DNA of 64,000 nucleotides from Eledone cirrhosa (Eukaryota): the NCBI GenBank assembly GCA_964016885.1, contig OZ024740.1, forward strand, positions 434,372,001 through 434,436,000, read 5' to 3'. The notes beneath the pieces are model-generated. The model had not been told where the DNA came from, did not search any database, and saw only the letters and a list, made by a program, of their open reading frames with translations. This document shows, piece after piece, positions 1-35,603 of the stretch. Position 1 is the first letter of the stretch; every line of letters begins with the position of its first letter. Both the position numbers and the translations under genes were made by a program.

Positions 1-992
1 GACTCTAGCTATATATAGGGTGTGATTTAATGGAGATTTGAATGATATTTCTAGCTATATTGAACCCAGGAGTTTCTGCTCCTTGACTCTAGCTATATAT
101 AGGGTGTGATTTAATGGAGATTTGACTGCTATTTCTAGCTATATTGAACCCAGGAGTTTCTGCTCCTTGACTCTAGCTATATATAGGGTGTGATTTAATG
201 GAGATTTGAATGATATTTCTAGCTATATTGAACCCAGGAGTTTCTGCTCCTAGACTCTAGCTATATATTAGGGGTGATGTGGTGGAGACTTGACTGCTAT
301 TTCTAGCTATATTGAACCCAGGAGTTTCTCCTCCTTGACTTTAGCTATATATAGGGTGTGATGTGATGGAGATTAAAACCGCTATTTCTAGCTATATTGA
401 ACCCAGGAGTTTCTGCTCCTAGACTCTAGCTATATATAGGGGATGATGTGGTGGAGACTTGACTGCTATTTCTAGCTATATTGAACCCAGGAGTTTCTGC
501 TCCTTGACTCTAGCTATATATAGGGGATGATGTGGTGGAGACTTGACTGCTATTTCTAGCTATATTGAACCCAGGAGTTTCTGCTCCTTGACTCTAGCTA
601 TATATTGGGGTGATGCGGTAGAGATTTGACTGCTATTTCTAGCTATATTGAACCCAGGAGTTTCTGCTCCTTGACTCTAGCCATATATAGGGGCGATGTG
701 GTGGAGATTTGACTGCTATTTCTAGCTATATTGAACCCAGGAGTTTCTGCTCCTTGACTCTAGTTTTATATTAGGGGTGATGTGGTGGAGATTTGACTGC
801 TATTTCTAGCTATATTGAACCCAGGAGTTTCTGCTCCTTGACTCTAGCTATATATAGGGTGTGATTTAATGGATATTTGACTGCTATTTCTAGCTATATT
901 GAACCCAGGAGTTTCTGCTCCTTCACTCTAGCTATATAGAGGGGGTGATGTGGTGGAGATTTGACTGCTATTTCTAGCTATATTGAACCCAG
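1..992. repeat. Satellite A, 84-bp unit, ~12 copies visible (runs off the window start)
   Basis: Unit GACTCTAGCTATATATAGGG(T/G)GTGAT..TGGAGATTTGACTGCTATTTCTAGCTATATTGAACCCAGGAGTTTCTGCTCCTT restarts at 1, 85, 169 and onward. TCTAGCTATAT occurs twice per unit. Confidence 0.97.
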
Positions 993-3900
993 TGTATGTC
1001 ATGGCTGTGACCTGTTGGTCATTGACATGGTGTATGTCATGGCTGTGACATGTTGGTCATCGACATGGTGTATGTCATGGCTGTGACCTGTTGGTCATTG
1101 ACATGGTGTATGTCATGGCTGTGACTTGTTGGTCATTGATATGGTGTATGTATGACTGACTTGTTGGTCATTGACATGGTGTATGTCATGGCTGTGACTT
1201 GTTGGACATTGACATGGTGTATATCATCACAGTGACTTGTTTGTCATTGACATGGTGTATGTAATGGCTCTGACTTGTTGGTCATTGACATGGTGTATGT
1301 CATGGCGGTGACTTGTTGGTCATTGACATGGTGTATGTCATGGCTGTGATTGTTGGTCATTGACATGGTGTATGTCATGGCTGTGACTTGTTGGTCATAG
1401 ACATGGTGTATGTCATGGCTGTGATTGTTGGTCAGTGACATGGTGTATATCATCACTTTGACTTGTTTGTCATTGACATGGTGTATGTCATGGCTGTGAC
1501 TTGTTGGTCATTGATATGGTGTATGTATGACTGACTTGTTGGTCATTGACATGGTGTATGTCATGGCTGTTACTTATTGGTCATTGACATTGTGTATGTC
1601 ATGGCTGTGACTTGTTGGTCATTGACATGGTGTATGTCATGGCTGTGACTTGTTGTTCATTGACATGGTGTATGTCATGGCTGTGACTTGTTGGTAATTG
1701 ACATGGTGTATATCATCACTGTGACTTGTTTGTCATTGACATGGTGTATGTAATGGCTGTGACTTGTTGGTCATTGACATGGTGTATGTCATGGCGGTGA
1801 CTTGTTGGTCATTGACATGGTGTATGTCATGGCGGTGACTTGTTGGTCATTGACATGGTGTATATAATCACTGTGACTTTTGGTCATTGACATGGTGTAT
1901 GTCATGGCTGTGATTGTTGTTCATTGACATGGTGTATGTCATAGCTGTGACTTGAAGGGTCATTGACATGTATGTCATGGCTGTGATTGTTGTTCATTGA
2001 CATAGTGTATGTCATGGCTGTGACTTGTTGGTCATTGACATGGTGTATGTCATGGCTGTGACTCTTGGTCATTGACATGGTGTATCTCATGGCTGTGACT
2101 TGTTGGTCATTGACATGGTGTATGTCGTGGCTGTGACTTGTTGGTCATTGACATGGTGTATGTCATGGCTGTGATTGGTGGTCAGTGACATGGTGTATTT
2201 CATGGCTGTGACTTGTTGGTCATTAACATGGTGTATGTCATGGCTGTGACTGTTGGTCATTGACATGGTGTATGTCATGGCTGTGATTGTTGGTCATTAA
2301 CATGGTGTATGTCATGGCTGTGACTGTTGGTCATTGACATGGTGTATGTCATGGCTGTGACTGTTGGTCATTGACATGGTGTATGTCATGGCTGTGATTG
2401 TTGGTCATTGACATGGTGTATATCATCACTGTGACTTGTTTATCATTGACATGGTGTATTTAATGGCTGTGACTTGTTGGTCATTGACATGGTGTATGTC
2501 ATGCGGTGACTTGTTGGTCATTGACATGGTGTATGTCATGGCTGTGATTGTTGGTCATTGACATGGTGTATGTCATGGCTGTGACTTGTTGGTCATTGAC
2601 ATGGTGTATGTCATGGCTGTGATTGTTGGTTAGTGACGTGGTGTATATCATCACTTTGACTTGTTTGTCATTGACATGGTGTATGTCGTGGCTGTGACTT
2701 GTTGGTCATTGACATGGTGTATGTCATGGCTGTGATTGGTGGTCAGTGACATGGTGTATTTCATGGCTGTGACTTGTTGGTCATTAACATGGTGTATGTC
2801 ATGGCTGTGACTGTTGGTCATTGACATGGTGTATATCATCACTGTGACTTGTTTGTCATTGACATGTTGTATGTAATGGCTGTGACTTGTTGGTCATTGA
2901 CATGGTGTATGTCATGGCGGTGACTTGTTGGTCATTGACATGGTGTATATAATCACTGTGACTTTTGGTCATTGACATGGTGTATGTCATGGCTGTGATT
3001 GTTGGTCATTGACATGGTGTATATCATGCCCGTTACTGTTGGTCATTGACATGGTGTATGTCATGGCTGTGACTTGTTCGTCATTGACTTGGTGTATGTC
3101 ATGGCTGTGACTTGAAGGGTCATTGACATGTATGTCATGGCTGTGATTGTTGTTCATTGACATAGTGTATGTCATGGCTGTGACTTGTTGGTCATTGACA
3201 TGGTGTATGTCATGGCTGTGACTCTTGGTCATTGACATGGTGTATGTCATGGCTGTGACTTGTTGGTCATTGACATGGTGTATGTCATGGCTGTGACTTG
3301 TTGGTCATTGACATCTATGTCATGGCTCTGACTTGTTGGTTATTGACATGGTGTATAACATGGCGGTGATTGTTGGTTATTGGCATGGTGTATGTCATGG
3401 CAGTGATTGTTGGTCATTGACATGGTGTATGTCATGGCTGTGATTGGTGGTCAGTGACATGGTGTATGTCATGGCTGTGACTTGTTGGTCATTAACATGG
3501 TGTATGTCATGGCTGTGACTGTTGGTTATTGACATGGTGTATGTCATGGCTGTGATTGTTGATCATTAACATGGTGTATGTCATGGCTGTGACTGTTGGT
3601 CATTGACATGGTGTATGTCATGGCTGTGACTGTTGGTCATTGACATGGTGTATGTCATGGCTGTGACTTGTTGGTCATTAACATGGTGTATGTCATGGCT
3701 GTGACTGTTGGTCATTGACATGGTGTATGTCATGGCTGTGACTGTTGGTCATTGACATGGTGTATGTCATGGCTGTGATTGTTGGTCATTGACATGGTGT
3801 ATGTCATGGCTGTGATTGTTGGTCATTAACATGGTGTATGTCATGGCTGTGACTGTTGGTCATTGACATGGTGTATGTCATGGCTGTAATTGTTGGTCAT

Positions 3901-6900
3901 TAACATGGTGTGTCATGGCTGTGACTGTTGGTCATTGACATGGTGTATGTCATGGCTGTGACTGTTGGTCATTGACATGGTGTATGTCATGGCTGTGATT
4001 GTTGGTCATTGACATGGTGTATGCCATGGTTGTGACTTGTTGGTCATTGACATGGTGTATTTCATGGCTGTGATTGGTGGTCATTGTCATGGAGTACGTC
4101 ATGGCTGTGATTGTTGTTCATTGAAATGGTGTATGTCATGGCTGTGACTTATTGGTCATTGGCATGGTGTATGTCATGGCTGTGACTTATTGGTCATTGA
4201 CATGGTGTATGTCATGGCTGTGACTTATTGGTCATTGGCATGGTGTATGTCATGGCTGTGACTGTTGGTCATTGACATGGTGTATGTCATGGCTGTGACT
4301 TGTTGGTCATTGACATGGTGTATGTCATGGCTGTGACCTGTTGGTCATTGACATGGTGTATGTCATGGCTGTGATTGTTGGTCATTGACATGGTGTATTT
4401 CATGGCTGTGACTTGTTGGTCATTGACATGGTGTATGTCATGGCTGTGATAGTTGGTCATTGACATGGTGTATGTCATGCCCGTTACTGTTGGTCATTGA
4501 CATGGCTGTGACTGTTGGTCATTGACATGGTGTATGTCATGGCAGTGATTGTTGGTCATAGACATGGTGTATGTCATGGCTGTGATTGATGGTCAATGAC
4601 ATTGTGTATGTCATCACCGTGACTTGTTGGTCATTGACATGGTGTATGTCATGGCTGTGACTGTTGATCATTGACATGGTGTATGTCATGGCTGTGACTT
4701 GTTGGTCATTGAGATGGTGTATGGCATGGCTATGACATGGTGTATGTCATGGTCGTGACTTGTTGGTCATTGACATGGTGTATGTCATGGCTGTGACTTC
4801 TTGGTCATTGCCATGGTGTATATCATCACTGTAACTTGTTGGTCATTGACATGTATGTCATGGCTCTAATTTGTTGGTCATTGACATGTTGTATGTCATG
4901 GCTGTGATTGTTGGTCATTGACATGGTGTATGTCATGGCTGTGACTTGTTGGTCATTGACATGTATGTCATGGCTGTGATTGTTGTTCATTGACATAGTG
5001 TATGTCATGGCTGTGACTTGTTGGTCATTGACATGGTGTATGTCATGGCTGTGACTTGTTGGTCATTGACATGGTGTATGTCATGGCTGTGACTTGTTGG
5101 TCATTGACATCTATGTCATGGCTCTGACTTGTTGGTTAGTGACATGGTGTATATCATGGCGGTGATTGTTGGTTATTCGCATGGTGTATGTCATGGCAGT
5201 GATTGTTGGTCATTGACATGGTGTATGTAATGGCTGTGATTGGTGGTCAGTGGCATGGTGTATGTCATGGCTGTGACTTGTTGTTCATTGACATGGTGTA
5301 TGTCATGGCTGTGACTTGTTGGTCATTAACATGGTGTATGTCATGGCTGTGACTGTTGGTCATTGACATGGTGTATGTCATGGCTGTGATTGTTGTTCAT
5401 TAACATGGTGTATGTCATGGCTGTGACTGTTGGTCATTGACATGGTGTATGTCATGGCTGTGACTGTTGGTCATTGACATGGTGTGTGTCATGGCTGTGA
5501 CTTGTTGGTCATTGACATGGTGTATGTCATGGCTGTGACTGTTGGTCATTGACATGGTGTATATCATGGCTGTGATTGTTGGTCATTGACATGGTGTATG
5601 ACATGGCTGTGACTTGTTGGTCATTGACATGGTGTATTTCATGGCTGTGATTGGTGGTCATTGACATGGAGTACGTCATGGCTGTGATTGTTGTTCATTG
5701 ACATGGTGTATGTCATGGCTGTGACTTATTGGTCATTGGCATGGTGTATGTCATGGCTGTGACTTATTGGTCATTGACATGGTGTATGTCATGGCTGTGA
5801 CTTATTGGTCATTGGCATGGTGTATGTCATGGCTTTGACTGTTGGTCATTGACATGGTGTATGTCATGGCTGTGACTTGTTGGTCATTGACATGGTGTAT
5901 GTCATGGCTGTGACCTGTTGGTCATTGACATGGTGTATGTCATGGCTGTGATTGTTGGTCATTGACATGCTTTATGTCATGGCTGTGACCTATTGGTCAT
6001 TGACATGCTGATTGTTGGTCATTGACATGGTGTATGTCATGCCCGTTACTGTTGGTCATTGACATGGCTGTGACTGTTGGTCATTGACATGGTGTATGTC
6101 ATGGCAGTGATTGTTGGTCATAGACATGGTGTATGTCATGGCTGTGATTGATGGTCAATGACATGGTGTATGTCATCACCGTGACTTGTTGGTCATTGAC
6201 ATGGTGTATGTCATGGCTGTGACTGTTGATCATTGACATGGTGTTTGTCATGGCTGTGACTTGTTGGTCATTGAGATGGTGTATGGCATGGCTATGACAT
6301 GGTGTATGTCATGGTCGTGACTTGTTGGTCATTGCCATGGTGTATATCATCACTGTAACTTGTTGGTCATTGACATGGTGTATGTCATGTCTGTGAATAT
6401 CGGACATTGACATGGTGTATGTCATGGCTGTGACTTGTTGGTCATTGACATGGTGTATGTCATGGCTGAGACTTGTTGGTCATTGACATGTATGTCATGG
6501 CTCTAACTTGTTGGTCATTGACATGTTGTATGTCATGGCTGTGATTGTTGGTCATTGAGATGGTCTATGTCATGGCTGTGATTGTTGGTCATTGACATGG
6601 TCTATGTCATGGCTGTGATTGTTGGTCATTGACACGGTGTATGTCATGGCTGTGACTGTTGGTCATTGACATGGTGTATGTCATGACTGTGACTTGTTGG
6701 TCATTGATATGGTGTATGTCATGACTGTGACTTCTTGGTCCTTGACATGGTGTATGTCATGGCTGTGACTTGTTGGTCATTGATATGGTGTATGTCATGG
6801 CTGAGACTTATTGGTCATTGACATGGTGTATGTCATGGCTGTCATTGTTGGTCATTGACATGCTGTATGTCATGGCTGTGATTTTTGGTCATTGACATGG

Positions 6901-9900
6901 TGTATGTCATGGCTGTGACTGTTGGTCATTGACATGGTATATGTCATGGCTGTGACTTGTTGGTCATTGACATAGTATATGTCATGGCCGTGACTGTTGG
7001 TCATTGACATGGTGTATGTCATGGCTGTGATTGTTCGTCATTGACATGGTGTATGTCATGACTGTGACTTGTTGGTCATTGACATGATGTAAGTCATGGC
7101 TGTGACCTGTTGGTTATTGTCATGGCTGTGACTTGTTGGTCATTGACATGGTGTATATCATGGCTGTGTCTTGCTGGTCATTGACATGTTGTATGCCATG
7201 GCTGTGACTTGTTGGTCATTGACATGGTGTATGTCATTGCTGTGACTTGTTGGTCATTGACATGATGTATGTCACGACTGTGACATGTTGGTCATTGACA
7301 TGGTGTATGTCATGGCTGTGACTTGTTGGTAATTGACATGGTGTATGTCATGGTTGTGATTGTTGGTCATTGACATGGTGTATGTCATGGCTGTGACTTG
7401 TTGGTCATTGACATGGTGTATGTCATGGCTGTGACTTGTTGGTAATTGACATGGTGTATGTCATGGTTGTGAGTGTTGGTCATTGACATGGTGTATGTCA
7501 TGGCTGTGACTTGATCGTCATTGACACGGTGTATGTCATGGCTGTGACTTGTTCGTCATTGACATGGTGTATGTCATGGCTGTGACTTGTTGGTCATTGA
7601 CATGGTGTATGTCATGGTTGTGACTGTTGGTCATTGACATGGTGTATGCCATGGCTGTGATTTTTGGTCATTGACATGGTTGTCTATTGTTGGTCATTGA
7701 GATCGTGTATGTCATGACTGTGACTTGTTTGTCATTGACATGGTGTATGTCATGGCTGTGACTTGTTGGTCATTGACATGGTGTATGTCATGGCTGTGAT
7801 TGTTGATCAGTGACATGGTGTATACCATCACTTTGACTTGTTTGTCATTGACATGGTGTATGTCATGGCTGTGACTTGTTGGTCATTGATATGGTGTATG
7901 TATGACGGACTTGTTGGTCATTGACATGGTGTATGTCATGGCTGTGACTTATTGGTCATTGACATGGTGTATGTCATGGCTGTGACTTGTTGGTCATTGA
8001 CATGGTGTATGTCATGGCTGTGACTTGTTGTTCATTGACATGGTGTATGTCATGGCTGTGACTTGTTGGTCATTGACATGGTGTATGTCATGGCTGTGAT
8101 TGTTGGTCATTGACATGGTGTATATCATCACTGTGACTTTTTTGTCATTGACATGGTGTATGTAATGGCTGTGACTTGTTGGTCATTGACATGGTGTATG
8201 TCATGGCGGTGACTTGTTGGTCATTGACATGGTGTATATAATCACTGTGACTTTTGGTCATTGACATGGTGTATGTCATGGATGTGATTGTTGTTCATTG
8301 ACATGGTGTATATCATGCCCGTTACTGTTGGTCATTGACATGGTGTATGTCATGGCTGTGACTTGAAGGGTCATTGACATGTATGTCATGGCTGTGATTG
8401 TTGTTCATTGACTTAGTGTATGTCATGGCTGTGACTTGTTGGTCATTGACATGGTGTATGTCATGGCTGTGACTCTTGGTCATTGACATGGTGTATGTCA
8501 TGGCTGTGACTTGTTGGTCATTGACATGGTGTATGTCATGGCTGTGACTTGTTGGTCATTGACATCTATGTCATGGCTCTGACTTGTTGGTTATTGACAT
8601 GGTGTATATCATGGCGGTGATTGTTGGTTATTGGCATGGTGTATGTCATGGCTGTGATTGGTGGTCAGTGACATGGTGTATGTCATGGCTGTGACTTGTT
8701 GGTCATTAACATGGTGTATGTCATGGCTGTGACTGTTGGTCATTGACATGGTGTATGTCATGGCTGTGATTGTTGGTCATTAACATGATGTATGCTATGG
8801 CTGTGATTGTTGGTCATTAACATGGTGTATGTCATGGCTGTGACTGTTGGTCATTGACATGGTGTATGTCATGGCTGTGACTGTTGGTCATTGACATGGT
8901 GTATGTCATGGCTGTGACTGTTGGTCATTGACATGGTGTATGTCATAGCTGTGATTGTTGGTCATTGACATGGTGTATGTCATGGCTGTGACTTGTTGGT
9001 CATTGACATGGTGTATGTCATGGCTGTGATTGTTGGTTAGTGACGTGGTGTATATCATCACTTTGACTTGTTTGTCATTGACATGGTGTATGTCGTGGCT
9101 GTGACTTGTTGGTCATTGACATGGTGTATGTCATGGCTGTGATTGGTGGTCAGTGACATGGTGTATTTCATGGCTGTGACTTGTTGGTCATTAACATGGT
9201 GTATGTCATGGCTGTGACTGTTGGTCATTGACATGGTGTATATCATCACTGTGACTTGTTTGTCATTGACATGTTGTATGTAATGGCTGTGACTTGTTGG
9301 TCATTGACATGGTGTATGTCATGGCGGTGACTTGTTGGTCATTGACATGGTGTATATAATCACTGTGACTTTTGGTCATTGACATGGTGTATGTCATGGC
9401 TGTGATTGTTGGTCATTGACATGGTGTATATCATGCCCGTTACTGTTGGTCATTGACATGGTGTATCTCATGGCTGTGACTTGTTCGTCATTGACATGGT
9501 GTATGTCATGGCTGTGACTTGTTGGTCATTGACATGGTGTATGTCATGGCTGTGATTGTTGGTTAGTGACGTGGTGTATATCATCACTTTGACTTGTTTG
9601 TCATTGACATGGTGTATGTCGTGGCTGTGACTTGTTGGTCATTGACATGGTGTATGTCATGGCTGTGATTGGTGGTCAGTGACATGGTGTATTTCATGGC
9701 TGTGACTTGTTGGTCATTAACATGGTGTATGTCATGGCTGTGACTGTTGGTCATTGACATGGTGTATATCATCACTGTGACTTGTTTGTCATTGACATGT
9801 TGTATGTAATGGCTGTGACTTGTTGGTCATTGACATGGTGTATGTCATGGCGGTGACTTGTTGGTCATTGACATGGTGTATATAATCACTGTGACTTTTG

Positions 9901-12900
9901 GTCATTGACATGGTGTATGTCATGGCTGTGATTGTTGGTCATTGACATGGTGTATATCATGCCCGTTACTGTTGGTCATTGACATGGTGTATGTAATGGC
10001 TGTGACTTGTTGGTCATTGACATGGTGTATGTCATGGCGGTGACTTGTTGGTCATTGACATGGTGTATATAATCACTGTGACTTTTGGTCATTGACATGG
10101 TGTATGTCATGGATGTGATTGTTGTTCATTGACATGGTGTATATCATGCCCGTTACTGTTGGTCATTGACATTGTGTATGTCATGGCTGTGACTTGAAGG
10201 GTCATTGACATGTATGTCATGGCTGTGATTGTTGTTCATTGACTTAGTGGATGTCATGGCTGTGACTTGTTGGTCATTGACATGGTGTATGTCATGGCTG
10301 TGACTCTTGGTCATTGACATGGTGTATGTCATGGCTGTGACTTGTTGGTCATTGACATGGTGTATGTCATGGCTGTGACTTGTTGGTCATTGACATCTAT
10401 GTCATGGCTCTGACTTGTTGGTTATTGACATGGTGTATATCATGGCGGTGATTGTTGGTTATTGGCATGGTGTATGTCATGGCTGTGATTGGTGGTCAGT
10501 GACATGGTGTATGTCATGGCTGTGACTTGTTGGTCATTAACATGGTGTATGTCATGGCTGTGACTGTTGGTCATTGACATGGTGTATGTCATGGCTGTGA
10601 TTGTTGGTCATTGACATGGTGTATGTCATGGCTGTGACTCTTGGTCATTGACATGGTGTATGTCATGGCTGTGACTTGTTGGTCATTGACATGGTGTATG
10701 TCATGGCTGTGACTTGTTGGTCATTGACATCTATGTCATGGCTCTGACTTGTTGGTTATTGACATGGTGTATATCATGGCGGTGATTGTTGGTTATTGGC
10801 ATGGTGTATGTCATGGCTGTGATTGGTGGTCAGTGACATGGTGTATGTCATGGCTGTGACTTGTTGGTCATTAACATGGTGTATGTCATGGCTGTGACTG
10901 TTGGTCATTGACATGGTGTATGTCATGGCTGTGATTGTTGGTCATAAACATGATGTATGCTATGGCTGTGATTGTTGGTCATTAACATGGTGTATGTCAT
11001 GGCTGTGACTGTTGGTCATTGACATGGTGTATGTCATGGCTGTGACTGTTGGTCATTGACATGGTGTATGTCATGGCTGTGACTGTTGGTCATTGACATG
11101 GTGTATGTCATGGCTGTGATTGTTGGTCATTAACATGGTGTATGTCATGGCTGTGACTGTTGGTCATTGACATGGTGTATGTCATGGCTGTGACTTGTTG
11201 GTCATTGACATGGTGTATGTCATGGCTGTGATTGTTGATCAGTGACATGGTGTATACCATCACTTTGACTTGTTTGTCATTGACATGGTGTATGTCATGG
11301 CTGTGACTTGTTGGTCATTGATATGGTGTATGTATGACGGACTTGTTGGTTATTGACATGGTGTATATCATGGCGGTGATTGTTGGTTATTGGCATGGTG
11401 TATGTCATGGCTGTGATTGGTGGTCAGTGACATGGTGTATGTCATGGCTGTGACTTGTTGGTCATTAACATGGTGTATGTCATGGCTGTGACTGTTGGTC
11501 ATTGACATGGTGTATGTCATGGCTGTGATTGTTGGTCATTAACATGATGTATGCTATGGCTGTGATTGTTGGTCATTAACATGGTGTATGTCATGGCTGT
11601 GACTGTTGGTCATTGACATGGTGTATGTCATGGCTGTGACTGTTGGTCATTGACATGGTGTATGTCATGGCTGTGACTGTTGGTCATTGACATGGTGTAT
11701 ATCATGGCTGTGATTGGTGGTCAGTGACATGGTGTATTTCATGGCTGTGACTTGTTGGTCATTAACATGGTGTATGTCATGGCTGTGACTGTTGGTCATT
11801 GACATGGTGTATATCATCACTGTGACTTGTTTGTCATTGACATGTTGTATGTAATGGCTGTGACTTGTTGGTCATTGACATGGTGTATGTCATGGCGGTG
11901 ACTTGTTGGTCATTGACATGGTGTATGTCATGGCTGTGATTGTTGGTCATTGACATGGTGTATGTCATGGCGGTGACTTGTTGGTCATTGACATGGTGTA
12001 TATAATCACTGTGACTTTTGGTCATTGACATGGTGTATGTCATGGATGTGATTGTTGTTCATTGACATGGTGTATATCATGCCCGTTACTGTTGGTCATT
12101 GACATGGTGTATGTCATGGCTGTGACTTGAAGGGTCATTGACATGTATGTCATGGCTGTGATTGTTGTTCATTGACTTAGTGTATGTCATGGCTGTGACT
12201 TGTTGGTCATTGACATGGTGTATGTCATGGCTGTGACTCTTGGTCATTGACATGGTGTATGTCATGGCTGTGACTTGTTGGTCATTGACATGGTGTATGT
12301 CATGGCTGTGACTTGTTGGTCATTGACATCTATGTCATGGCTCTGACTTGTTGGTTATTGACATGGTGTATATCATGGCGGTGATTGTTGGTTATTGGCA
12401 TGGTGTATGTCATGGCTGTGATTGGTGGTCAGTGACATGGTGTATGTCATGGCTGTGACTTGTTGGTCATTAACATGGTGTATGTCATGGCTGTGACTGT
12501 TGGTCATTGACATGGTGTATGTCATGGCTGTGATTGTTGGTCATTAACATGATGTATGCTATGGCTGTGATTGTTGGTCATTAACATGGTGTATGTCATG
12601 GCTGTGACTGTTGGTCATTGACATGGTGTATGTCATGGCTGTGACTGTTGGTCATTGACATGGTGTATGTCATGGCTGTGACTGTTGGTCATTGACATGG
12701 TGTATGTCATAGCTGTGATTGTTGGTCATTGACATGGTGTATGTCATGGCTGTGACTTGTTGGTCATTGACATGGTGTATGTCATGGCTGTGATTGTTGG
12801 TTAGTGACGTGGTGTATATCATCACTTTGACTTGTTTGTCATTGACATGGTGTATGTCGTGGCTGTGACTTGTTGGTCATTGACATGGTGTATGTCATGG

Positions 12901-21900: not shown

Positions 21901-24900
21901 TGTATGTCATGGCTGTGATTTTTGGTCATTGACATGGTGTATGTCATGGCTGTGACTGTTGGTCATTGACATGGTATATGTCATGGCTGTGACTTGTTGG
22001 TCATTGACATAGTATATGTCATGGCCGTGACTGTTGGTCATTGACATGGTGTATGTCATGACTGTGACTTGTTGGTCATTGACATGATGTAAGTCATGGC
22101 TGTGACCTGTTGGTTATTGTCATGGCTGTGACTTGTTGGTCATTGACATGGTGTATATCATGGCTGTGTCTTGCTGGTCATTGACATGTTGTATGCCATG
22201 GCTGTGACTTGTTGGTCATTGACATGGTGTATGTCATTGCTGTGACTTGTTGGTCATTGACATGATGTATGTCACGACTGTGACATGTTGGTCATTGACA
22301 TGGTGTATGTCATGGCTGTGACTTGTTGGTAATTGACATGGTGTATGTCATGGTTGTGATTGTTGGTCATTGACATGGTGTATGTCATGGCTGTGACTTG
22401 TTGGTCATTGACATGGTGTATGTCATGGCTGTGACTTGTTGGTCATTGACATGGTTGTCTATGGTTGGTCATTGATATCCTGTATGTCATGACTGTGACT
22501 TGTTTGTCATTGACATGGTGTATGTCATGGCTGTGACTTGTTGGTAATTGACATGGTGTATGTCATGGTTGTGAGTGTTGGTCATTGACATGGTGTATGT
22601 CATGGCTGTGACTTGATCGTCATTGACACGGTGTATGTCATGGCTGTGACTTGTTCGTCATTGACATGGTGTATGTCATGGCTGTGACTTGTTGGTCATT
22701 GACATGGTGTATGTCATGGTTGTGACTGTTGGTCATTGACATGGTGTATGCCATGGCTGTGATTTTTGGTCATTGACATGGTTGTCTATTGTTGGTCATT
22801 GAGATCGTGTATGTCATGACTGTGACTTGTTTGTCATTGACATGGTGTATGTCATGGCTGTGACTTGTTGGTCATTGACATGGTGTATGTCATGGCTGTG
22901 ATTGTTGATCAGTGACATGGTGTATACCATCACTTTGACTTGTTTGTCATTGACATGGTGTATGTCATGGCTGTGACTTGTTGGTCATTGATATGGTGTA
23001 TGTATGACTGACTTGTTGGTCATTGACATGGTGTATGTCATGGCTGTGACTTATTGGTCATTGACATGGTGTATGTCATGGCTGTGACTTGTTGGTCATT
23101 GACATGGTGTATGTCATGGCTGTGACTTGTTGTTCATTGACATGGTGTATGTCATGGCTGTGACTTGTTGGTCATTGACATGGTGTATGTCATGGCTGTG
23201 ATTGTTGGTCATTGACATGGTGTATATCATCACTGTGACTTGTTTGTCATTGACATGGTGTATGTAATGGCTGTGACTTGTTGGTCATTGATATGGTGTA
23301 TGTCATGGCGGTGACTTGTTGGTCATTGACATGGTGTATATAATCACTGTGACTTTTGGTCATTGACATGGTGTATGTCATGGATGTGATTGTTGTTCAT
23401 TGACATGGTGTATATCATGCCCGTTACTGTTGGTCATTGACATGGTGTATGTCATGGCTGTGACTTGAAGGGTCATTGACATGTATGTCATGGCTGTGAT
23501 TGTTGTTCATTGACTTAGTGTATGTCATGGCTGTGACTTGTTGGTCATTGACATGGTGTATGTCATGGCTGTGACTCTTGGTTATTGACATGGTGTATGT
23601 CATGGCTGTGACTTGTTGGTCATTGACATGGTGTATGTCATGGCTGTGACTTGTTGGTCATTGACATCTATGTCATGGCTCTGACTTGTTGGTTATTGAC
23701 ATGGTGTATATCATGGCGGTGATTGTTGGTTATTGGCATGGTGTATGTCATGGCTGTGATTGGTGGTCAGTGACATGGTGTATGTCATGGCTGTGACTTG
23801 TTGGTCATTAACATGGTGTATGTCATGGCTGTGACTGTTGGTCATTGACATGGTGTATGTCATGGCTGTGATTGTTGGTCATTAACATGGTGTATGCTAT
23901 GGCTGTGATTGTTGGTCATTAACATGGTGTATGTCATGGCTGTGACTGTTGGTCATTGACATGGTGTATGTCATGGCTGTGACTGTTGGTCATTGACATG
24001 GTGTATGTCATGGCTGTGACTGTTGGTCATTGACATGGTGTATGTCATGGCTGTGATTGTTGGTCATTAACATGGTGTATGTCATGGCTGTGACTGTTGG
24101 TCATTGACATGGTGTATGTCATGGCTGTGACTGTTGGTCATTGACATGGTGTATGTCATGGCTGTGACTGTTGGTCATTGACATGGTGTATGTCATGGCT
24201 GTGACTGTTGGTCATTGACATGGTGTATGTCATGACTGTGATTGTTGGTCATTGACATGGTGTATGTCATGGCTGTGACTTGTTGGTCATTGACATGGTG
24301 TATGTCATGGCTGTGACTTGTTGGTCATTGACATGGTGTATGTAATTCCTGTAACTTGTTGGTCATTGACATGGTGTATGTCATGGCTGTGATTGTTGGT
24401 CAGTGACATGGTGTATATCATCACTTTGACTTGTTTGTCATTGACATGGTGTATGTCATGGCTGTGACTTGTTGGTCATTGATATGGTGTATGTATGACT
24501 GACTTGTTGGTCATTGACATGGTGTATGTCATGGCTGTGATTGTTGGTCATTGACATGCTGTATGTCATGGCTGTGATTTTTGGTCATTGACATGCTGTA
24601 TGTCATGGCTGTGACTGTTGGTCATTGACATGGTATATGTCATGGCTGTGACTTGTTGGTCATTGACATAGTGTATGTCATGGCCGTGACTGTTGGTCAT
24701 TGACATGGTGTATGTCATGGCTGTGATTGTTCGTCATTGACATGGTGTATGTCATGACTGTGACTTGTTGGTCATTGACATGATGTAAGTCATGGCTGTG
24801 ACCTGTTGGTTATTGTCATGGCTGTGACTTGTTGGTCATTGACATGGTGTATATCATGGCTGTGTCTTGCTGGTCATTGACATGTTGTATGCCATGGCTG

Positions 24901-27900
24901 TGACTTGTTGGTCATTGACATGGTGTATGTCATTGCTGTGACTTGTTGGTCATTGACATGGTGTATGTCACGACTGTGACATGTTGGTCATTGACATGGT
25001 GTATGTCATGGCTGTGACTTGTTGGTAATTGACATGGTGTATGTCATGGCTGTGACTTGATCGTCATTGACACGGTGTATGTCATGGCTGTGACTTGTTC
25101 GTCATTGACATGGTGTATGTCATGGCTGTGACTTGTTGGTCATTGACATGGTGTATGTCATGGTTGTGACTGTTGGTCATTGACATGGTGTATGCCATGG
25201 CTGTGATTTTTGGTCATTGACATGGTTGTCTATTGTTGGTCATTGAGATCGTGTATGTCATGACTGTGACTTGTTTGTTTTTGACATGGTGTATGTCATG
25301 GCTGTGACTGTTGGTCATTGATATGGTGTATGTCATGACTGTGATTGTTGGTCATTGACATGGTGTATGTCATGGCTGTGACTTGTTGGTCATTGACATG
25401 GTGTATGTAATTCCTGTAACTTGTTGGTCATTGACATGGTGTATGTCATGGCTGTGATTGTTGGTCAGTGACATGGTGTATATCATCACTTTGACTTGTT
25501 TGTCATTGACATGGTGTATGTCATGGCTGTGACTTGTTGGTCATTGATATGGTGTATGTATGACTGACTTGTTGGTCATTGACATGGTGTATGTCATGGC
25601 TGTGATTATTGGTCATTGCCATGGTGTATGTCATGGCTGTGACTTGTTGGTCATTGACATGGTGTATGTCATAGCTGTGATTGTTGGTCAGTGACATGGT
25701 GTATATCATCACTTTGACTTGTTTGTCATTGACATGGTGTATGTCATGGCTGTGACTTGTTGGTCATTGATATGGTGTATGTATGACTGACTTGTTGGTC
25801 ATTGACATGGTGTATGTCATGGCTGTTACTTATTGGTCATTGACATGGTGTATGTCATGGCTGTGACTTGTTGGTCATTGACATGGTGTATGTCATGGCT
25901 GTGACTTGTTGTTCATTGACATGGTGTATGTCATGGCTGTGATTGTTGGTCATTGACATGGTCTATGTCATGGCTGTGATTGTTGGTCATTGACACGGTG
26001 TATGTCATGGCTGTGACTGTTGGTCATTGACATGGTGTATGTCATGACTGTGACTTGTTGGTCATTGATATGGTGTATGTCATGACTGTGACTTCTTGGT
26101 CATTGACATGGTGTATGTCATGGCTGTGACTTCTTGGTCATTGACATGGTGTATGTCATGGCTGTGACTTGTTGGTCATTGATATGGTGTATGTCATGGC
26201 TGTGACTTGTTGGTCATTGATATGGTGTATGTATGACTGACTTGGTCATTGACATGGTGTATGTCATGGCTGTTACTTATTGGTCATTGACATGGTGTAT
26301 GTCATGGCTGTGACTTGTTGGTCATTGACATGGTGTATGTCATGGCTGTGACTTGTTGTTCATTTACATGGTGTATGTCATGGCTGTGACTTGTTGGTCA
26401 TTGACATGGTGTATGTCATGGCTGTGATTGTTGGTCATGACATGGTGTATATCATCACTGTGACTTGTTTGTCATTGACATGGTGTATGTAATGGCTGTG
26501 ACTTGTTGGTCATTGACATGGTGTATATAATCACTGTGACTTTTTGTCATTGACATGGTGTATGTCATGGCTGTGATTGTTGGTCATTGACATGGTGTAT
26601 ATCATGCCCGTTACTGTTGGTCATTGACATGGTGTATCTCATGGCTGTGACTTGTTCGTCATTGACTTGGTGTATGTCATGGCTGTGACTTGAAGGGTCA
26701 TTGACATGTATGTCATGGCTGTGATTGTTGTTCATTGACATAGTGTATGTCATGGCTGTGACTTGTTGGTCATTGACATGGTGTATGTCATGGCTGTGAC
26801 TCTTGGTCATTGACAGGGTGTATGTCATGGCTGTGACTTGGTGGTCATTGACATGGTGTATGTCATGGCTGTGACTTGTTGGTCATTGACATCTATGTCA
26901 TGGCTGTGACTTGTTGGTTATTGACATGGTGTATATCATGCCGGTGATTGTTGGTTATTGGCATGGTGTATGTCATGGCAGTGATTGTTGGTCATTGACA
27001 TGGTGTATGTCATGGCTGTGATTGGTGGTCAGTGACATGGTGTATGTCATGGCTGTGACTTGTTGGTCATTGACATAGTGTATGTCATGGCCGTGACTGT
27101 TAGTCATTGACATGGTGTATGTCATGGCTGTGACTTGTTGGTCATTGACATGGTGTATGTCATGGCTGACTTGTTGGTCATTGACATGGTGTATGTCATG
27201 GCCGTGACTTGTTGGTCATTGACATGATGTATGTCATGGCTGTGACCTGTTGGTTATTGACATGGAGTATGTCATGGCTGTGACTTGTCGGTCATTGACA
27301 TGGTGTATATCATGGCTGTGACTTGCTCGTCATTGACATGGTGTATGTCATGGCTGTGTCTTGCTGGTCATTGACATGGTGTATGCCATGGCTGTGACTT
27401 GTTGGTCATTGACATGGTGTATGTCACGACTGTGACATGTTGGTCATTGACATGGTGTATGTCATGGCTGTGACTTGTTGGTCATTGACATGGTGTATGT
27501 CATGGCTGTGACTTGTTGGTCATTGACATGGTGTATGTCATGGTTGTGATTGGTGGTCATTGGCATGGTGTATTTCATTGTTGTGACTTGTTGGTCATTG
27601 ACATGGTTTATGTCATGGCTGTGACTTGTTGGTCATTGACATGGTGTATGTCATGGCTGTGACTTGTTGGTCATTGACGTGGTGTATGCCATGGCTGTGA
27701 TTTTTGGTCATTGACATGGTTGTCTATTGTTGGTCATTGAGATCGTGTATGTCATGACTGTGACTTGTTTGTCATTGACATGGTGTATGTCATGGCTGTG
27801 ACTGTTGGTCATTGACATGGTATATGTCATGGCTGTGACTTGTTGGTCATTGACATGGTGTATGTCATGGCTGCGACTTGTTGGTCATTGGCATGGTGTA

Positions 27901-29320
27901 TGTCATGGCTGTGACTTGTTGGTCATTCAAGTGGTGTATGTCATGACTGACCTGTTGGTCATTGACATTGTGTATGTCATGGCTGTGACTAGTTGGTCAT
28001 TGACATGGTGTATGTCATGGTTGTGACTAGTTGGTCATTGACATGGTGTATGTCATGGTTGTGACCTGTTGGTCATTGACATGAAGTATGTCATGCTGTA
28101 TGTCATGGCTGCGATTTTTGGTCATTGACATGGTGTATGTCATGGCTGTGACTTGTTGGTCATTGACATGGTGTATGTCATGGCTGTGACTCGTTGGTCA
28201 TTGACATGGTGTATGTCATGGTTGTGACCTGTTGGTCATTGACTTGAAGTATGTCATGACTGACTTGTTGGTTATTGACATAGTGTATGTCATGGCTGTG
28301 ACTTGCTCGTCATTGACATGGTGTATGTCACGGCTGTGTCTTGCCGGTCATTGACATGGTGTTTGTCATGACTGTTACTTGTTGGACATTGACATGGTGT
28401 ATGTTATTGACATGGTGTGTGTCATGGCTCTGACTTGTTGGTAATTGACATGGTGTATATCATGGCTGTGACTTGTTGGTCATTGACATGGTGTATGTCA
28501 TGGTTGTGATTGTTGGTCATTGACATAGTATATGTCATGGCTGTGATTGTTGGTCATTGACATGGTGTATGTCATGGCTGTGATTGCCGTCATTGACATG
28601 GTGTATGTCATGGCTGTGATTGCGGTCATTGACATGGTGTATGTCATGGCTGTGACTTGTTGGTCATTGACGTGGTGTATGTCATGGCTGTGACGTGTTG
28701 GTCATTGACATGGCGTATGTCCTGGCTGTGACGTGTTGGTCATTGACATGGCGTATGTCCTGGCTGTGACTTGTTGGTCATTGACATGGTGTATGTCATG
28801 GCTGTGACTTGTTGGTCATTGACATGGTGTATGTCATGACTGTTACTTGTTGGTCATTGACATGGTGTATGTCACGACTGTGACATGTTGGTCATTGACA
28901 TGGTGTATGTCATGGCTGTGACTTGTTGGTAATTGACATGGTGTATATCATGGCTGTGACTTGTTGGTCATTGAATTGGTGTATGTCATGGCTGTGACTT
29001 GTTGTTCATTGACATGGTGTATGTCATGGCTGTGATTGTTGGTCATTGACATGGTGTATGTCATAGCTGTGACGTGTTGGTCATTGACATGGTGTATGTC
29101 ATGGTTGTGATTGTTGGTCATTGACATGGTGTATGTCATGACCGTTACTTGTTGGTCATTGACATGGTGTATGTCATGGCTGTGACTTGTTGGTCATTGA
29201 CATGGTGTATGTCATGACTGTTACTTGTTGGTCATTAACATGGTGCATGTCCTGGCTGTGACTTGTTGGTCATTGACATTGTGTATGTCATGGCTGTGAC
29301 ATGGTGTATGTCATGACATG
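992..29320. repeat. Satellite B, 38-bp unit (37- and 35-bp variants), roughly 750 copies, with kb-scale duplicated blocks
   Basis: Consensus GGTGTATGTCATGGCTGTGACTTGTTGGTCATTGACAT repeated head-to-tail in one orientation. Diagnostic variants (TTGAAGGGTC, GCCCGTTACT, TATCATCACT, GGAGTACGTC) recur in ordered blocks. Confidence 0.98.
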
Positions 29321-32300
29321 TATTTTTTTCTATATCCCTGTTCAATGTATCTTGTTTTATATCCCTGTTTAATATATCTTGTTCTATATCCCTGTTTAAT
29401 ATATCTTGTTCTATATCCCTCTTCAATGTATCTTGTTGTATATCCCTGTTCAATGTATCTTGTTCAATGTATCTTGTTCTATATCCCTGTTTACTACATT
29501 TTGTTCTATATCCCTGTTCAATGTATCTTGTTCTATATCCCTGTTTAATACATTTTGTTCTATATCCCTGTTCAATGTATCTTGTTCTATATCCCTCTTC
29601 AATGTTTCTCGTTCTATATCCCTGTTTAATATATCTTATTCTATATCCCTCTTCAATGTATCTTGTTGTATATCCCTGTTCAATGTATCTTGTTCTATAT
29701 ATCTTGTTCAATGTATCTTGTTCTATATCCCTGTTTAATACATTTTGTTCTATATCCCTGTTTAATACATTTTGTTCTATATCCCTGTTCAATGTATCTT
29801 GTTCTATATCCCTGTTTAATACATTTTGTTCTATATCCCTCTTCAATGTATCTTGTTCTATATCCCTGTTTAATACATTTTGTTCTATATCCCTCTTCAA
29901 TGTATCTTGTTCTATATCCCTGTTCAATATATCTTGTTCTATATCCCTGTTCAATATATCTTGTTCTCTCTCCCTGTTCAATATATCTTGTTCTATATCC
30001 CTGTTCAATGTATGTTGTTCTATATCCCTGTTTAATATATCTTGTTCTATATCCCTGTTTAATACATTTTGTTCTATATCCCTGTTCAATGTATCTTGTT
30101 CTATATCCCTGTTCAATGTATCTTGTTCTATATCCCTGTTCAATATATCTTGTTCTATATCCCTGTTCAATATATCCTGTTCTATATCCCTGTTCAATGT
30201 ATCTTGTTCTATATCCCTGTTTAATATATCTTGTTCTATATCCCTGTTCAATGTATCTTGTTCTATATCCCTGTTCAATGTATCTTGTTCTATATCCCTC
30301 TTCAATGTATCTTGTTCTATATCCCTGTTCAATATATCTTGGTCTATATCCCTGTTCAATGTATCTTGTATTATATCCCTGTTCAATGTATCTTGTTCTA
30401 TATCCCTGTTCAATATATCTTGGTCTATATCCCTGTTCAATGTTTCTTGTATTATATCCCTGTTCAATGTATCTTGTTCTATATCCCTGTTCAATATATC
30501 TTGTTCTATATCCCTGTTCAATATATCTTGTTCTATATCCCTGTTTAATATATCTTGTTCTATATCCCTGTTCAATATATCTTGTTCTATATCCCTGTTT
30601 AATATATCTTGTTCTATATCCCTGTTCAATGTATCTTGTTCTATATCCCTGTTCAATGTATCTTGTTCTATATCCGTGTTCAATGTATCTTGTTCTATAT
30701 CCCTGTTCAATGTATCTTGTTCTATATCCCTGTTCAATATATCTTGTTCTATATCCCTGTTCAATGTATCTTGTTCTATATCCCTGTTCAATGTATCTTG
30801 TTCTATATCCCTGTTCAATATATCTTGTTCTATATCCCTGTTCAATGTATCTTGTATTATATCCCCATTCAATGTATCTTGTTCTATATCCCTGTTCAAT
30901 ATATCTTGTTCTATATCACTGTTTAATATATCTTGTTCTATATCCCTGTTCAATATATCTTGTTCTATATCCCTGTTTAATATATCTTGTTCTATATCCC
31001 TGTTCGATATATCTTGTTCTATATCCCTGTTCAATATATATTGTTCTATATCCCTGTTCAATATATCTTGTTCTATATCCCTGTTTAATATATCTTGTTC
31101 TATATCCCTGTTTAATATATCTTGTTCTATATCCCTGTTCAATATATCTTGTTCTATATCCCTGTTCAATATATATTGTTCTATATCCCTGTTCAATATA
31201 TCTTGTTCTATATCCCTGTTCAATGTATGTTGTTCTATATCCCTGTTCAATGTATCTTGTTCTATATCCCTGTTCAACATATCTTGTTCTATATCCCTGT
31301 TCAATATATCTTGTTCTATATCCCTGTTCAATATATCTTGTTCTATATCCCTGTTCAATATATCTTGTTCTATATCCCTGTTTAATGTATCTTGTTCTAT
31401 ATCCCTGTTCAATATATCTTGTTCTATATCCCTGTTCAATATATCTTGTTCTATATCCCTCTTCAATGTATCTTGTTCTATATCCCTGTTCAATGTATCT
31501 TGTTCTATATCCCTGTTTTATATATCTTGTTCTATATATCTTGTTTAATATATCTTGTTCTATATCCCTGTTCAATGTCTCTTGTTCTATAACCCTGTTC
31601 AATGTATCTTGTTCTATATCCCTGTTCAATGTATGTTGTTCTATATCCCTGTTCAATATATCTTGTTCTATATCCCTCTTCAATGTATCTTGTTCTATAT
31701 CCCTGTTCAATGTATGTTGTTCTATATCCCTGTTCAATGTCTCTTGTTCTATAACCCTGTTCAATGTATGTTGTTCTATATCCCTGTTCAATATATCTTG
31801 TTCTATATCCCTGTTCAATATATCTTGTTCTCTATCCCTCTTCAATGTATCTTGTTCTATATCCCTGTTTAATATATTTTGTTCTCTATCCCTCTTCAAT
31901 GTATCTTGTTCTATATCCCTGTTCAATGTATCTTGTTCTATATCCCTGTTCAATATATATTGTTCTATATCCCTGTTCAATATATCCTGTTCTATATCCC
32001 TGTTCAATGTATGTTGTTCTATATCCCTGTTCAATGTATGTTGTTCTATATCCCTGTTTCATATATCTTGTTCTATATCCCTGTTTAATATATCTTGTTC
32101 TATATCCCTGTTCAATATATCTTGTTCTATATCCCTGTTCAATATATCTTGTTCTATATCCCTGTTCAATATATCTTGTTCTATTTCCCTGTTCAATATA
32201 TCTTGTTCTATATCCCTGTTCAATATATCTTGTTCTCTCTCCCTGTTTAATATATCTTGTTCTATATCCCTGTTCAATGTATCTTGTTCTATATCCCTGT

Positions 32301-33230
32301 TTAATGTATCTTGTTCTATATCCCTGTTCAATATATCTTGTTCTATATCCCTGTTTAATATATCTTGTTCTATATCCCTGTTTAATATATCTTGTTCTAT
32401 ATCCCTGTTCAATGTATCTTGTTCTATATCCCTGTTCAATGTATCTTGTTCTATATCCCTGTTTAATATATATTGTTCTATATCCCTCTTCAATGTATCT
32501 TGTTCTATATCCCTTTTTGATATATCTTGTTCTATATCCCTCTTCAATGTATGTTGTTCTATATCCATGTTCAATATATCTTGTTCTATATCCCTGTTCA
32601 ATGTATCTTGTTCTATATCCCTGTTTAATATATATTGTTCTATATCCCTCTTCAATGTATCTTGTTCTATATCCCTGTTTAATATATATTGTTCTATATC
32701 CCTCTTCAATGTATCTTGTTCTATATCCCTGTTCAATATATCTTGTTCTATATCTCTGTTTAATATATATTGTTCTATATCCCTCTTCAATGTATCTTGT
32801 TCTATATCCCTGTTCAATATATCTTGTTCTATATCCCTGTTTAATATATATTGTTCTATATCCCTCTTCAATGTATCTTGTTCTATATCCCTGTTCAATG
32901 TATCTTGTTCTATATCCCTGTTTAATATATATTGTTCTATATCCCTCTTCAATGTATCTTGTTCTATATCCCTGTTCAATATATCTTGTTCTATATCTCT
33001 GTTTAATATATATTGTTCTATATCCCTCTTCAATGTATCTTGTTCTATATCCCTGTTCAATATATCTTGTTCTATATCCCTGTTTAATATATCTTGTTCT
33101 ATATCTCTGTTTAATATATATTGTTCTATATCCCTGTTCAATGTATCTTGTTCTATATCCCTGTTCAATGTATCTTGTTCTATATCCCTGTTCAATGTAT
33201 CTTGTTCTATATCCAGGTTCAGTGTATCTT
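29318..33230. repeat. Satellite C, 27-bp unit, ~145 copies
   Basis: Consensus TTCAAT(G/A)TATCTTGTTCTATATCCCTG. The 9-aa periodicity of the overlapping ORFs (NRDIEQDIL) reflects the 27-bp unit. Confidence 0.98.
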
Positions 33231-33313
33231 TTCTTTCTTTTTTTAAATACAGTAGAGGATGGTATGAGGTAGTTTTGTATATGTATAAAGTTCTGTTCCC
33301 TTTTCTTTTTCAG

Positions 33314-33404
33314 CTTCTACATCAACCACAATACTAGGAAGACTCAATGGGAATCTCCTCAATGGGAGTCTGCTGATACTACATCACACCAAACAGCTTC
33401 AGAA
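33314..33404 (+). CDS. Internal coding exon (91 nt) of a WW-domain protein gene; encodes the C-terminal half of the WW domain
   Basis: Polypyrimidine tract and acceptor TTCTGTTCCCTTTTCTTTTTCAG (33291-33313); donor GAA|GTAAGT at 33405. One nt plus 30 open codons give FYINHNTRKTQWESPQWESADTTSHQTASE, matching the WW signature (Y/F)(Y/F)x(N/D)HxTxxTxWxxP. The gene itself cannot be identified from this exon. Confidence 0.85.
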
Positions 33405-33666
33405 GTAAGTACCTGATTATTATAAATATTAGGGATATACTATGTATGATGTCAACAATGGGAGTAGTTCTCTAAACTTCTCCCATCCTATCCTAATTTT
33501 CTCAGAGCACAGAGGATGACTTAATCTGCTGGTTAAGTCACCTAGATAGTAGAAGCTATCAACCATTTCTATGGACCCTTCTTCCTGTGACTTGAAGAAG
33601 TTTATATCACTTACCGTTCTTCCCTTTGATTACTCCTGTACATCTGCTATATACAAAAAGAGCACC

Positions 33667-33720
33667 CAGTCCACAATGTAAATGTGGTTGGCGTTAGGAA
33701 GGGCATCCAGCTGTAGAAAC
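33667..33720 (+). mobile_element. Short fragment of the RTE LINE/SINE 3'-UTR module
   Basis: CCACAATGTAAATGTGGTTGGCGTTAGGAAGGGCATCCAGCTGTAGAAAC is near-identical to 61849-61897 and 35430-35480. Confidence 0.75.
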
Positions 33721-33950
33721 AAAAATCTGACTAATACACTCACACATATATCCTTAAATTGAATCTCTGATCCTATAAAATACTCCATTGATGTAATATA
33801 ATTTGATTGTAATCTTTTATAAAATAAAAAAGATATTCTTAGTTTCTTAGATTTGGAATCATTCCAAACCATAACTTGGCTGTTGCTTGCAGAAGATGAT
33901 GAGGTACTAAATACAACTATTAATTTTTCTTAGTTACAATCTAAAAATGT

Positions 33951-34402: not shown

Positions 34403-34783
34403 CCGCCAATAATGGAAGTTATTTGTTGCTGACATATGTAAACAGATTTATGGATTTTTTGCCAATGATTTTGTTATTGTTGTGTATTCTACATCGGCAT
34501 CCAATTCTTCTGGTGATTGCCTATGGCCAGATGTCTTCAAAGAATCATCAATTTTAATATTTTAACTTCCACAGAAATACTTTGTCTATGATTTATTGAG
34601 CTGTTGCTGAAGCTACATTCTTTGGTTTATGTCTACAAACTCTTTCTTCTCAGGAATCTTCACTGTATTTCGTACTGAATGAATGTCTTGTTTAGATTCT
34701 ATCAAACGTATGCAAAGGAATATATATATAAAATTACAAGAAATGTAGTACCATGCAGTGACCGTACTATATATATATATATA

Positions 34784-35240: not shown

Positions 35241-35255
35241 ATATATATATATATA

Positions 35256-35354: not shown

Positions 35355-35372
35355 CACTTTGTTTACAATAAC

Positions 35373-35602: not shown

Positions 35603-35603
35603 G

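What the first reader, a model, noticed from the sequence alone, without database searches (positions are those of the whole stretch)
1..33410. A lone WW-domain exon implies a host gene with a giant satellite-filled intron
Seen: a 91-nt exon (33314-33404) with a strong acceptor and GTAAGT donor encodes FYINHNTRKTQWESP, the second half of a WW domain. It sits ~85 nt after satellite C and is absent from the ORF track. No exon for the first half of the domain is visible upstream. Inference: the WW domain is split by an intron of more than 33 kb made almost wholly of three abutting satellites, and satellite D may lie in the next intron. Known parallel: satellite-filled giant introns of Drosophila Y fertility genes. 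The satellites would then be transcribed as pre-mRNA.
Basis: partly seen in the sequence, partly recalled or inferred. Interest (0 to 1): 0.75.

Follow-up and report, generated by a model that had tools for sequence, protein, structure and literature searches.

The report
Octopod WW gene with satellite-swollen introns
The lone exon is exon 2 of an intact 13-exon octopod gene whose coding exons are predicted to span about 700 kb once a likely flipped piece of the assembly is turned round, with about three quarters of its intron DNA made of some 30 unrelated tandem repeats that likely grew in place, a pattern common in this genome rather than special to this gene.

Summary
Confirmed, with corrections. 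The 91-nt exon (33314-33404) is real and single-copy. It is exon 2 of the orthologue of Octopus sinensis LOC115218689 (WW plus CUE-like; 88% identical, 13 coding exons, no internal stops). Exon 1 lies 47.6 kb before the window in matching phase, so the WW domain is split by an 80,940-nt intron. That intron is 72% tandem repeat; the three abutting satellites make up 58%, not almost all. Exons 3-13 lie 0.8-1.4 Mb upstream on the opposite strand. Satellite D runs into a 200-N gap and resumes, reversed, at another gap 1 kb from exon 3, so the contig holding exons 1-2 is likely flipped in the assembly and D lies in intron 2. Introns total about 699 kb, 77% tandem; intron 3 is one 130-kb array. Satellites B, C and D match exactly nowhere else in the genome. 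The state is not gene-specific: 6 of 20 evenly spaced samples of this chromosome are one long array, and this scan noted the same in other genes of this genome. It resembles chicken intron 'stuttering' more than Drosophila Y-loops. No RNA evidence was obtained.

The parts
1..33313 (+). 3' part of intron 1 (whole intron 80,940 nt, G000:C1:434324374-434405313; coding exon 1 with the ATG and first half of the WW domain is at 434324294-434324373, before the window)
   Evidence: phase-2 donor and acceptor match
1..992 (.). Satellite A, 84-nt unit; last 1 kb of a 14.6-kb array that starts 13.6 kb before the window
992..29300 (.). Satellite B, 38-nt unit, about 755 copies, with internal multi-kb duplications (commonest offset 4,153 nt)
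   Evidence: 250 exact matches of a 30-mer in the genome equal the local count
29318..33234 (.). Satellite C, 27-nt unit, about 145 copies
   Evidence: 32 of 32 exact matches of a 30-mer lie here
33294..33313 (+). Splice acceptor of exon 2 (pyrimidine tract and CAG)
33314..33404 (+). Exon 2 (91 nt; begins with the last base of a split codon, ends in phase 0): second half of the WW domain plus linker
   Evidence: (79% identity to P0015 residues 28-56)
33405..33410 (+). Splice donor GTAAGT
33405..60692 (+). 5' part of intron 2 (27,288 nt); inferred to continue, across the gap, in the reversed 16,579 nt before exon 3 (G000:C1:433596887 down to 433580309); at least 43.9 kb, 91% tandem
37436..60692 (.). 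Satellite D, 39/41-nt unit; 23.3 kb here plus 15.6 kb reversed at C1:433581309-433596886, at least 38.8 kb if joined
   Evidence: 225+113 of 338 exact matches are in these two halves
60693..60892 (.). 200-N assembly gap; right edge of the 301-kb contig (C1:434131669-434432692) inferred to be misoriented; window sequence after it is inferred not to belong to this gene

Best explanation
This is exon 2 of an intact, single-copy octopod WW/CUE-like gene whose introns hold many unrelated tandem arrays that likely grew in place by repeated local duplication, are predicted to be transcribed and spliced out as ordinary introns, and likely reflect a regional tendency of this genome rather than a control device. 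Shown: 13 coding exons with GT-AG ends and matching phases give 607 aa without stops, 88% identical to the O. sinensis protein; intron 1 is 81 kb; introns total about 699 kb and are 77% tandem; the 30 units tested are unrelated to each other and to the exons; B, C and D have no exact match elsewhere; large arrays contain kb-scale exact internal duplicates. Inferred: a short stretch duplicates by slippage, then unequal exchange or break repair adds multi-kb blocks; selection keeps only exons and splice sites. Inferred: the opposite strands of exons 1-2 and 3-13 are a scaffolding error at a contig break inside satellite D. Inferred from domain names only: the protein is an adaptor that binds proline-rich motifs (WW) and possibly ubiquitin (CUE-like).
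For: Orthologue found blind with the 30-aa peptide and named. Exons mapped; identity 535 of 607 to O. sinensis, 433 of 518 to Argonauta hians. Flip: both ends of the displaced block are 200-N gaps; the two gap-facing 6-kb ends are 95% identical in reverse, the only long high-identity match among the six contig ends compared apart from repeat matches of 87% or less; exon 2's phase-0 donor fits exon 3's phase-0 acceptor 1 kb beyond the reversed array. Local growth: 435 unit pairs score at most 26 against a shuffled maximum of 25; exact counts; longest exact internal duplicates 1.0-4.8 kb in 6 of 6 large arrays. Regional: 6 of 20 evenly spaced 10-kb samples of C1 and 1 of 20 on other chromosomes are at least 90% long array; the 560 kb read beside the gene is 51% long arrays; 3 of 4 samples inside a myosin locus near the start of C3 are arrays, each a different unit.
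Against: No RNA from this organism was seen, so splicing across the arrays is not shown. No read spans either gap. The gene is richer in long arrays (72%) than its neighbourhood (36-51%) or C1 (30%), and gene content of the neighbourhood is unknown, so some intron-specific enrichment is not excluded. Long introns are not generally array-filled: 14 samples from the other kinesin and WW loci plus 2 from a shorter intron gave 0 of 16 at 90% or more. Exact-match counts miss diverged copies; A and the 32-mer of intron 3 were not counted genome-wide. Array edges were not clearly more diverged than interiors. Orthologous intron sizes in other species could not be fetched. Pfam finds no CUE domain in P0015.
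Confidence: 0.8

Rival explanations
1. The inversion is real: exons 1-2 were cut off from exons 3-13, so the exon is an orphan of a broken allele or is joined by trans-splicing.
For: As assembled, exons 1-2 are on + and exons 3-13 on -, 0.8-1.4 Mb apart. No read was available to bridge the gaps.
Against: Both breakpoints are 200-N gaps, not contiguous sequence. Satellite D faces both gaps in the orientation needed for a join. All exons and splice sites are intact. Orthologues in three Octopus species and Argonauta are single proteins.
Confidence: 0.06
2. The arrays are a regulatory device as in Drosophila Y-loop genes: intron length times or gates expression and needs dedicated RNA-binding proteins.
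For: About 700 kb against a median gene of 20 kb and median intron of 2.5 kb in O. vulgaris (PMC10700109 table). Array density exceeds the neighbourhood. Only 5 of 44 kinesin and myosin motor domains span 100 kb or more.
Against: No shared repeat that one protein could read. No robust strand bias for poly(A) or splice signals. Arrays are common along C1. No evidence of tissue restriction or sex linkage.
Confidence: 0.07
3. The arrays are real but their lengths are inflated or scrambled by the assembler, so the introns are much shorter than they look.
For: Exact internal duplicates of up to 4.8 kb; gaps fall inside arrays; the locus already holds one likely scaffolding error.
Against: Units differ by 5-15% within arrays, which gives long reads anchors. 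Introns 1, 3 and 4 (81, 133, 153 kb) have no gap. Gaps in arrays usually hide sequence rather than add it (general knowledge).
Confidence: 0.07

Closest known systems
Octopus sinensis LOC115218689 / O. bimaculoides LOC106869314 (XP_029644485, auto-named 'mucin-5AC isoform X2'; one cluster member named 'CUE domain-containing protein')
   Same: 88% identity over 607 aligned residues, same N-terminal WW, colinear exons, single copy.
   Different: Intron sizes of the orthologues could not be fetched. Function is uncharacterised; none of the 12 titles listed (of 18 papers) for 'WW domain' + 'CUE domain' is about this family (listing only).
Intron 'sequence stuttering' on chicken dot chromosomes (Hron et al. 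2026, PMC12954441; abstract, part 1 of section 7 and part 1 of the Discussion read)
   Same: [quoted passage not shown]
   Different: Here an invertebrate's largest chromosome and moderate GC (about 30-44% in the window); single arrays reach 130 kb; no exon-derived array found in this gene; length variation between individuals untested.
Intron gigantism of Drosophila Y-loop genes kl-3, kl-5 (Fingerhut et al. 2019, PMC6508621; 12 passages read)
   Same: Small exons separated by satellite-rich introns that must be transcribed through.
   Different: Y-loop introns are megabases of simple repeats such as AATAT and AAGAC, Y-linked, expressed over about 90 h in spermatocytes and need Blanks and Heph. 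Here the longest intron is 167 kb and the units are 17-84 nt and differ from array to array.

Membership tests
WW domain (PF00397) | Pfam match at or above the curated cut-off | tested here: met
   exon 2 alone 27.0 vs 26.9 bits; orthologue 51.1 bits over positions 1-31
WW domain (PF00397) | Both signature tryptophans and the closing proline, joined in frame | tested here: met
   first Trp in exon 1, second Trp and Pro in exon 2, phase-2 intron between
Orthologue of LOC115218689 | High identity over the whole length, colinear exons, single copy | tested here: met
WW + CUE proteins | CUE domain (PF02845) | tested here: inconclusive
   no Pfam CUE hit on P0015 at E 0.1; two relatives are named CUE-containing; top three Atlas hits 0.92-0.93 are clusters with CUE in 20-78% of members, a lead only
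Drosophila Y-loop intron gigantism | Megabase-sized introns | tested here: not met
   longest 167 kb; introns 2, 9 and 10 contain gaps and are minima
Drosophila Y-loop intron gigantism | Simple satellites (AATAT, AAGAC type) filling the introns | tested here: not met
   30 unrelated units of 17-84 nt
Drosophila Y-loop intron gigantism | Y-linkage and spermatocyte-specific expression | not testable with these tools
   no RNA run listed; gene is on the largest scaffold; sex linkage not tested
Drosophila Y-loop intron gigantism | Dependence on dedicated RNA-binding proteins | not testable with these tools
   needs experiments
Sequence stuttering (chicken dot chromosomes) | Locally expanded repeats confined to introns, exons intact | tested here: met
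Sequence stuttering (chicken dot chromosomes) | Extensive intron length variation between individuals | not testable with these tools
   one assembly only
Sequence stuttering (chicken dot chromosomes) | Occasional arrays copied from exon edges | tested here: not met
   best exon-versus-unit score 28, shuffled maximum 31, 13 exons x 30 units; the paper calls this feature occasional
Sequence stuttering (chicken dot chromosomes) | GC-rich dot microchromosome setting | tested here: not met
   443-Mb scaffold; GC of satellites A-D about 0.30-0.44

The most novel reading that the evidence does not exclude
This octopod has a genome-wide, invertebrate form of intron stuttering on a far larger scale than in birds: ordinary conserved genes carry private arrays of 10-130 kb whose lengths differ between individuals and species and change how long a gene takes to transcribe, giving a fast-evolving, gene-by-gene timer of expression. 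This gene, with about 30 such arrays, would be a direct test locus.
Probability: 0.15. Interest if true: 0.72.

Novelty: new variant of a known kind. Interest (0 to 1): 0.4.

Why it matters
It shows an ordinary conserved invertebrate gene tolerating about half a megabase of unrelated tandem arrays with an intact reading frame. I found no description of such arrays in the cephalopod papers searched (term look-ups in six papers; supplements not read, subscription papers not held). It also gives a practical tool: a repeat confined to one locus works as a barcode that exposes and corrects a flipped contig, and annotation would otherwise split this gene in two. Interest is moderate because this scan has already noted the same state in several genes of this genome, and no function or expression is shown.

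Tried and rejected
No RNA holder listed for the exon region; three coded runs of one sample, laid on 33240-34000, gave no joints and no cover of the exon, which proves nothing. A word-index protein search with the exon's open frame found no candidate; the index-free search found the orthologue. NEDD4/ITCH/MAGI hits are generic WW matches, rejected once the orthologue was found. An ab initio search for exon 3 in the 130 kb right of exon 2 found nothing convincing; the first filter also missed exon 2 itself, so it was too strict. Idea that arrays are filtered against splice donors on the sense strand: a pattern test gave 7 vs 0 of 31 arrays (p 0.016, one of four tests, satellite D counted twice), but a U1-pairing score gave 6 vs 7, 5 vs 6 and 4 vs 2 of 30; rejected. 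AG bias 21 vs 9 (p 0.04) is not significant after four tests. Poly(A) signals 2 vs 3: no bias. Exon-derived arrays: none. Edge-to-centre divergence gradient: not seen. A BLAST self-comparison of satellite B gave no useful rows. What joins the other end of the flipped contig is unresolved; C1:433610001-433712000 and 433013001-433020000 were not read.

Full report
Observation. Window 33314-33404 is flanked by a pyrimidine tract with CAG and by GTAAGT. It matches WW positions 17-31 at 27.0 bits. Exon plus flanks match in full once in the genome; the eight other hits are 30-50 nt of intron flank. TRF gives arrays A (84 nt, 1-992), B (38 nt, 992-29300), C (27 nt, 29318-33234) and D (39 nt, 37436-60692). 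The window is G000:C1:434372001-434436000, about 8.4 Mb from the end of a 442.9-Mb scaffold.

The partner exon. A motif scan of the window plus 100 kb each side gave 3 hits, one a WW first half. It starts with ATG at 434324294 and ends two bases into a codon before GTAAGT; exon 2 supplies the third base. Intron 1 is 80,940 nt, gap-free, 72% tandem. A+B+C abut over 46,855 nt (58%); the 5' 34 kb is 33% tandem.

The gene. A blind search with the 30-aa peptide returned mostly multi-WW proteins and one single-stretch hit at 79% identity, P0015, which is O. sinensis XP_029644485 of LOC115218689. Relatives occur in O. vulgaris, O. bimaculoides, Argonauta hians and two unnamed records. Searching P0015 in the genome placed exons 1-2 on + and ten more exons on - between 433.58 and 433.00 Mb; an eleventh 53-nt exon was found locally. 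The 13 exons have GT-AG ends, matching phases, 607 codons, no internal stop and 88% identity to P0015. Boundaries were chosen by best fit to P0015, so a few could be off by some bases. The organism is therefore likely an octopod other than the three Octopus species compared (which are 98-99% alike). Pfam shows only WW; CUE rests on names and Atlas neighbours.

The strand paradox. D ends at a 200-N gap. Its exact 39-mer occurs 225 times forward, all in the window, and 113 times reversed, all at 433581361-433596842. That reversed array ends at another 200-N gap and begins 1,001 nt from exon 3. The two gap-facing 6-kb ends are 95% identical in reverse, and the share of the 41-nt variant is 0.41 and 0.51 on the two sides. 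A further gap at 434131469 makes the exon 1-2 contig 301 kb. The simplest reading is a contig break inside D and a wrong orientation at scaffolding. Whether only this contig or the whole 836-kb block is flipped is open.

Intron content. Lengths in kb (tandem share): 80.9 (0.72), at least 43.9 (0.91), 132.8 (0.99), 152.8 (0.57), 35.5 (0.36), 5.5 (0.07), 1.1 (0.83), 5.4 (0.69), 167.2 (0.92), 23.6 (0.58), 43.8 (0.76), 6.2 (0.10). Total 698,674 nt, of which 691,274 were read: 77% tandem, 72% in arrays of 1 kb or more. Intron 3 is one gap-free array of about 4,070 copies of a 32-mer. There are 35 merged arrays of 1 kb or more; after dropping four with units of 10 nt or less and the second half of D, 30 units were compared and are no more alike than shuffles, nor like the exons. 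B and C have no exact 30-mer match elsewhere. All 6 large arrays tested hold exact duplicates of 1.0-4.8 kb, which fits stepwise growth by unequal exchange (inference), though assembly error could mimic it.

Controls. Evenly spaced 10-kb samples: 6 of 20 on C1 and 1 of 20 on other chromosomes are at least 90% long array; mean cover 30% and 12%. The 560 kb read beside the gene is 51% long arrays, the 52 kb before exon 1 is 38% and the 103 kb beyond the window's gap is 36%. Motor-domain spans, grouped into genes by hand (single-exon hits and unplaced contigs left out): median 13 kb for 26 kinesins and 26 kb for 18 myosins; 5 of 44 reach 100 kb, and 4 of those 5 lie within 7 Mb of a scaffold end (lengths). 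Of 20 samples from six long-intron loci, 3 were at least 90% array, all in the C3 myosin locus. So this gene is at the extreme end, but arrays are a common regional feature and long introns are not always array-filled.

Mechanism. Shown: intact gene, intron sizes, unrelated units, confinement of B, C and D. Inferred: local origin and growth; read-through transcription and normal splicing, since the exons would otherwise not be expected to stay intact; at a recalled elongation rate of 1-4 kb/min the gene would take roughly 3-12 h. A splice-signal filter on the sense strand did not survive a second test. No RNA evidence was obtained.

Comparison. It works most like chicken sequence stuttering (PMC12954441) but fails the dot-chromosome setting and lacks the population test, so it is not filed as a member. 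It is not a Y-loop gene (PMC6508621). O. vulgaris has a median intron of 2,467 nt (PMC10700109, one passage); O. minor is reported with enlarged introns and 14.7% simple repeats (PMC6279123, 7 passages). Word look-ups for 'satellite' gave 0 in PMC13282606 (part 1 of 3 also read), PMC10700109, PMC13218726, PMC12682272 and PMC13652810. Supplements were not read and may hold repeat tables. Earlier notes of this scan report the same state in DCP2, SRA1, LHPP, unc79 and APLF of this genome; I did not check those loci, and one of them gave me the chicken paper.

Verdict. Real exon, real giant intron, intact gene, one likely assembly flip; a new variant of a known kind, already seen repeatedly in this genome. 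Interest 0.40.

Noticed in passing
G000:C1:433596888-434432892 (window gap 60693-60892): Likely scaffolding error: the 301-kb contig holding exons 1-2, or the whole 836-kb block between two gaps, is reversed. Annotation would split this gene.
   Followed up: yes
G000:C1:433450108-433579902: A single gap-free 129.8-kb array of a 32-nt unit fills 98% of intron 3, with exact internal duplicates up to 4.8 kb at 37-40 kb offsets.
   Followed up: partly
L013/L012, about 41.2-40.6 kb before the window (intron 1): A 620-nt repeat gives a stop-free Pro-Ser-Pro-Ala frame of about 220 codons on the gene's strand; it is absent from the orthologue proteins aligned and no splice sites were sought.
   Followed up: no
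window 36217-37370 and 60893-62100: Fragments that look like RTE-type LINE reverse-transcriptase ends (label recalled) in opposite orientations, 87% alike; satellite D starts directly at the end of the first.
   Followed up: no
L100 (C1:252 Mb) and L131 (C2:250 Mb): Two samples on different chromosomes hold what looks like the same, more diverged 25-nt satellite, unlike the locus-confined arrays; possibly a shared, centromere-type repeat.
   Followed up: no
G000:C3:886075-1200575; C1:5887925-6422728; C15:247141-401499; C12:50256282-50379124: Myosin and kinesin motor domains stretched over 123-535 kb near scaffold ends (grouping by hand); the C3 locus is array-filled, the C15 and C12 introns are not.
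   Followed up: partly
G000:C1:435324474-435370300: Another WW domain appears split by about 46 kb on the minus strand, 0.9 Mb beyond the window; one of two samples is 80% AT microsatellite.
   Followed up: partly
G000:C1:433712001-433805791 and 433844837-433926704: Further arrays of at least 94 kb (20-nt unit) and 82 kb beside the gene; host genes unknown.
   Followed up: no
G000:C1:434129772-434131468: The contig end left of the inner gap has near-identical direct and inverted copies of a 310-nt-period segment, possibly an assembly artefact or a foldback.
   Followed up: no
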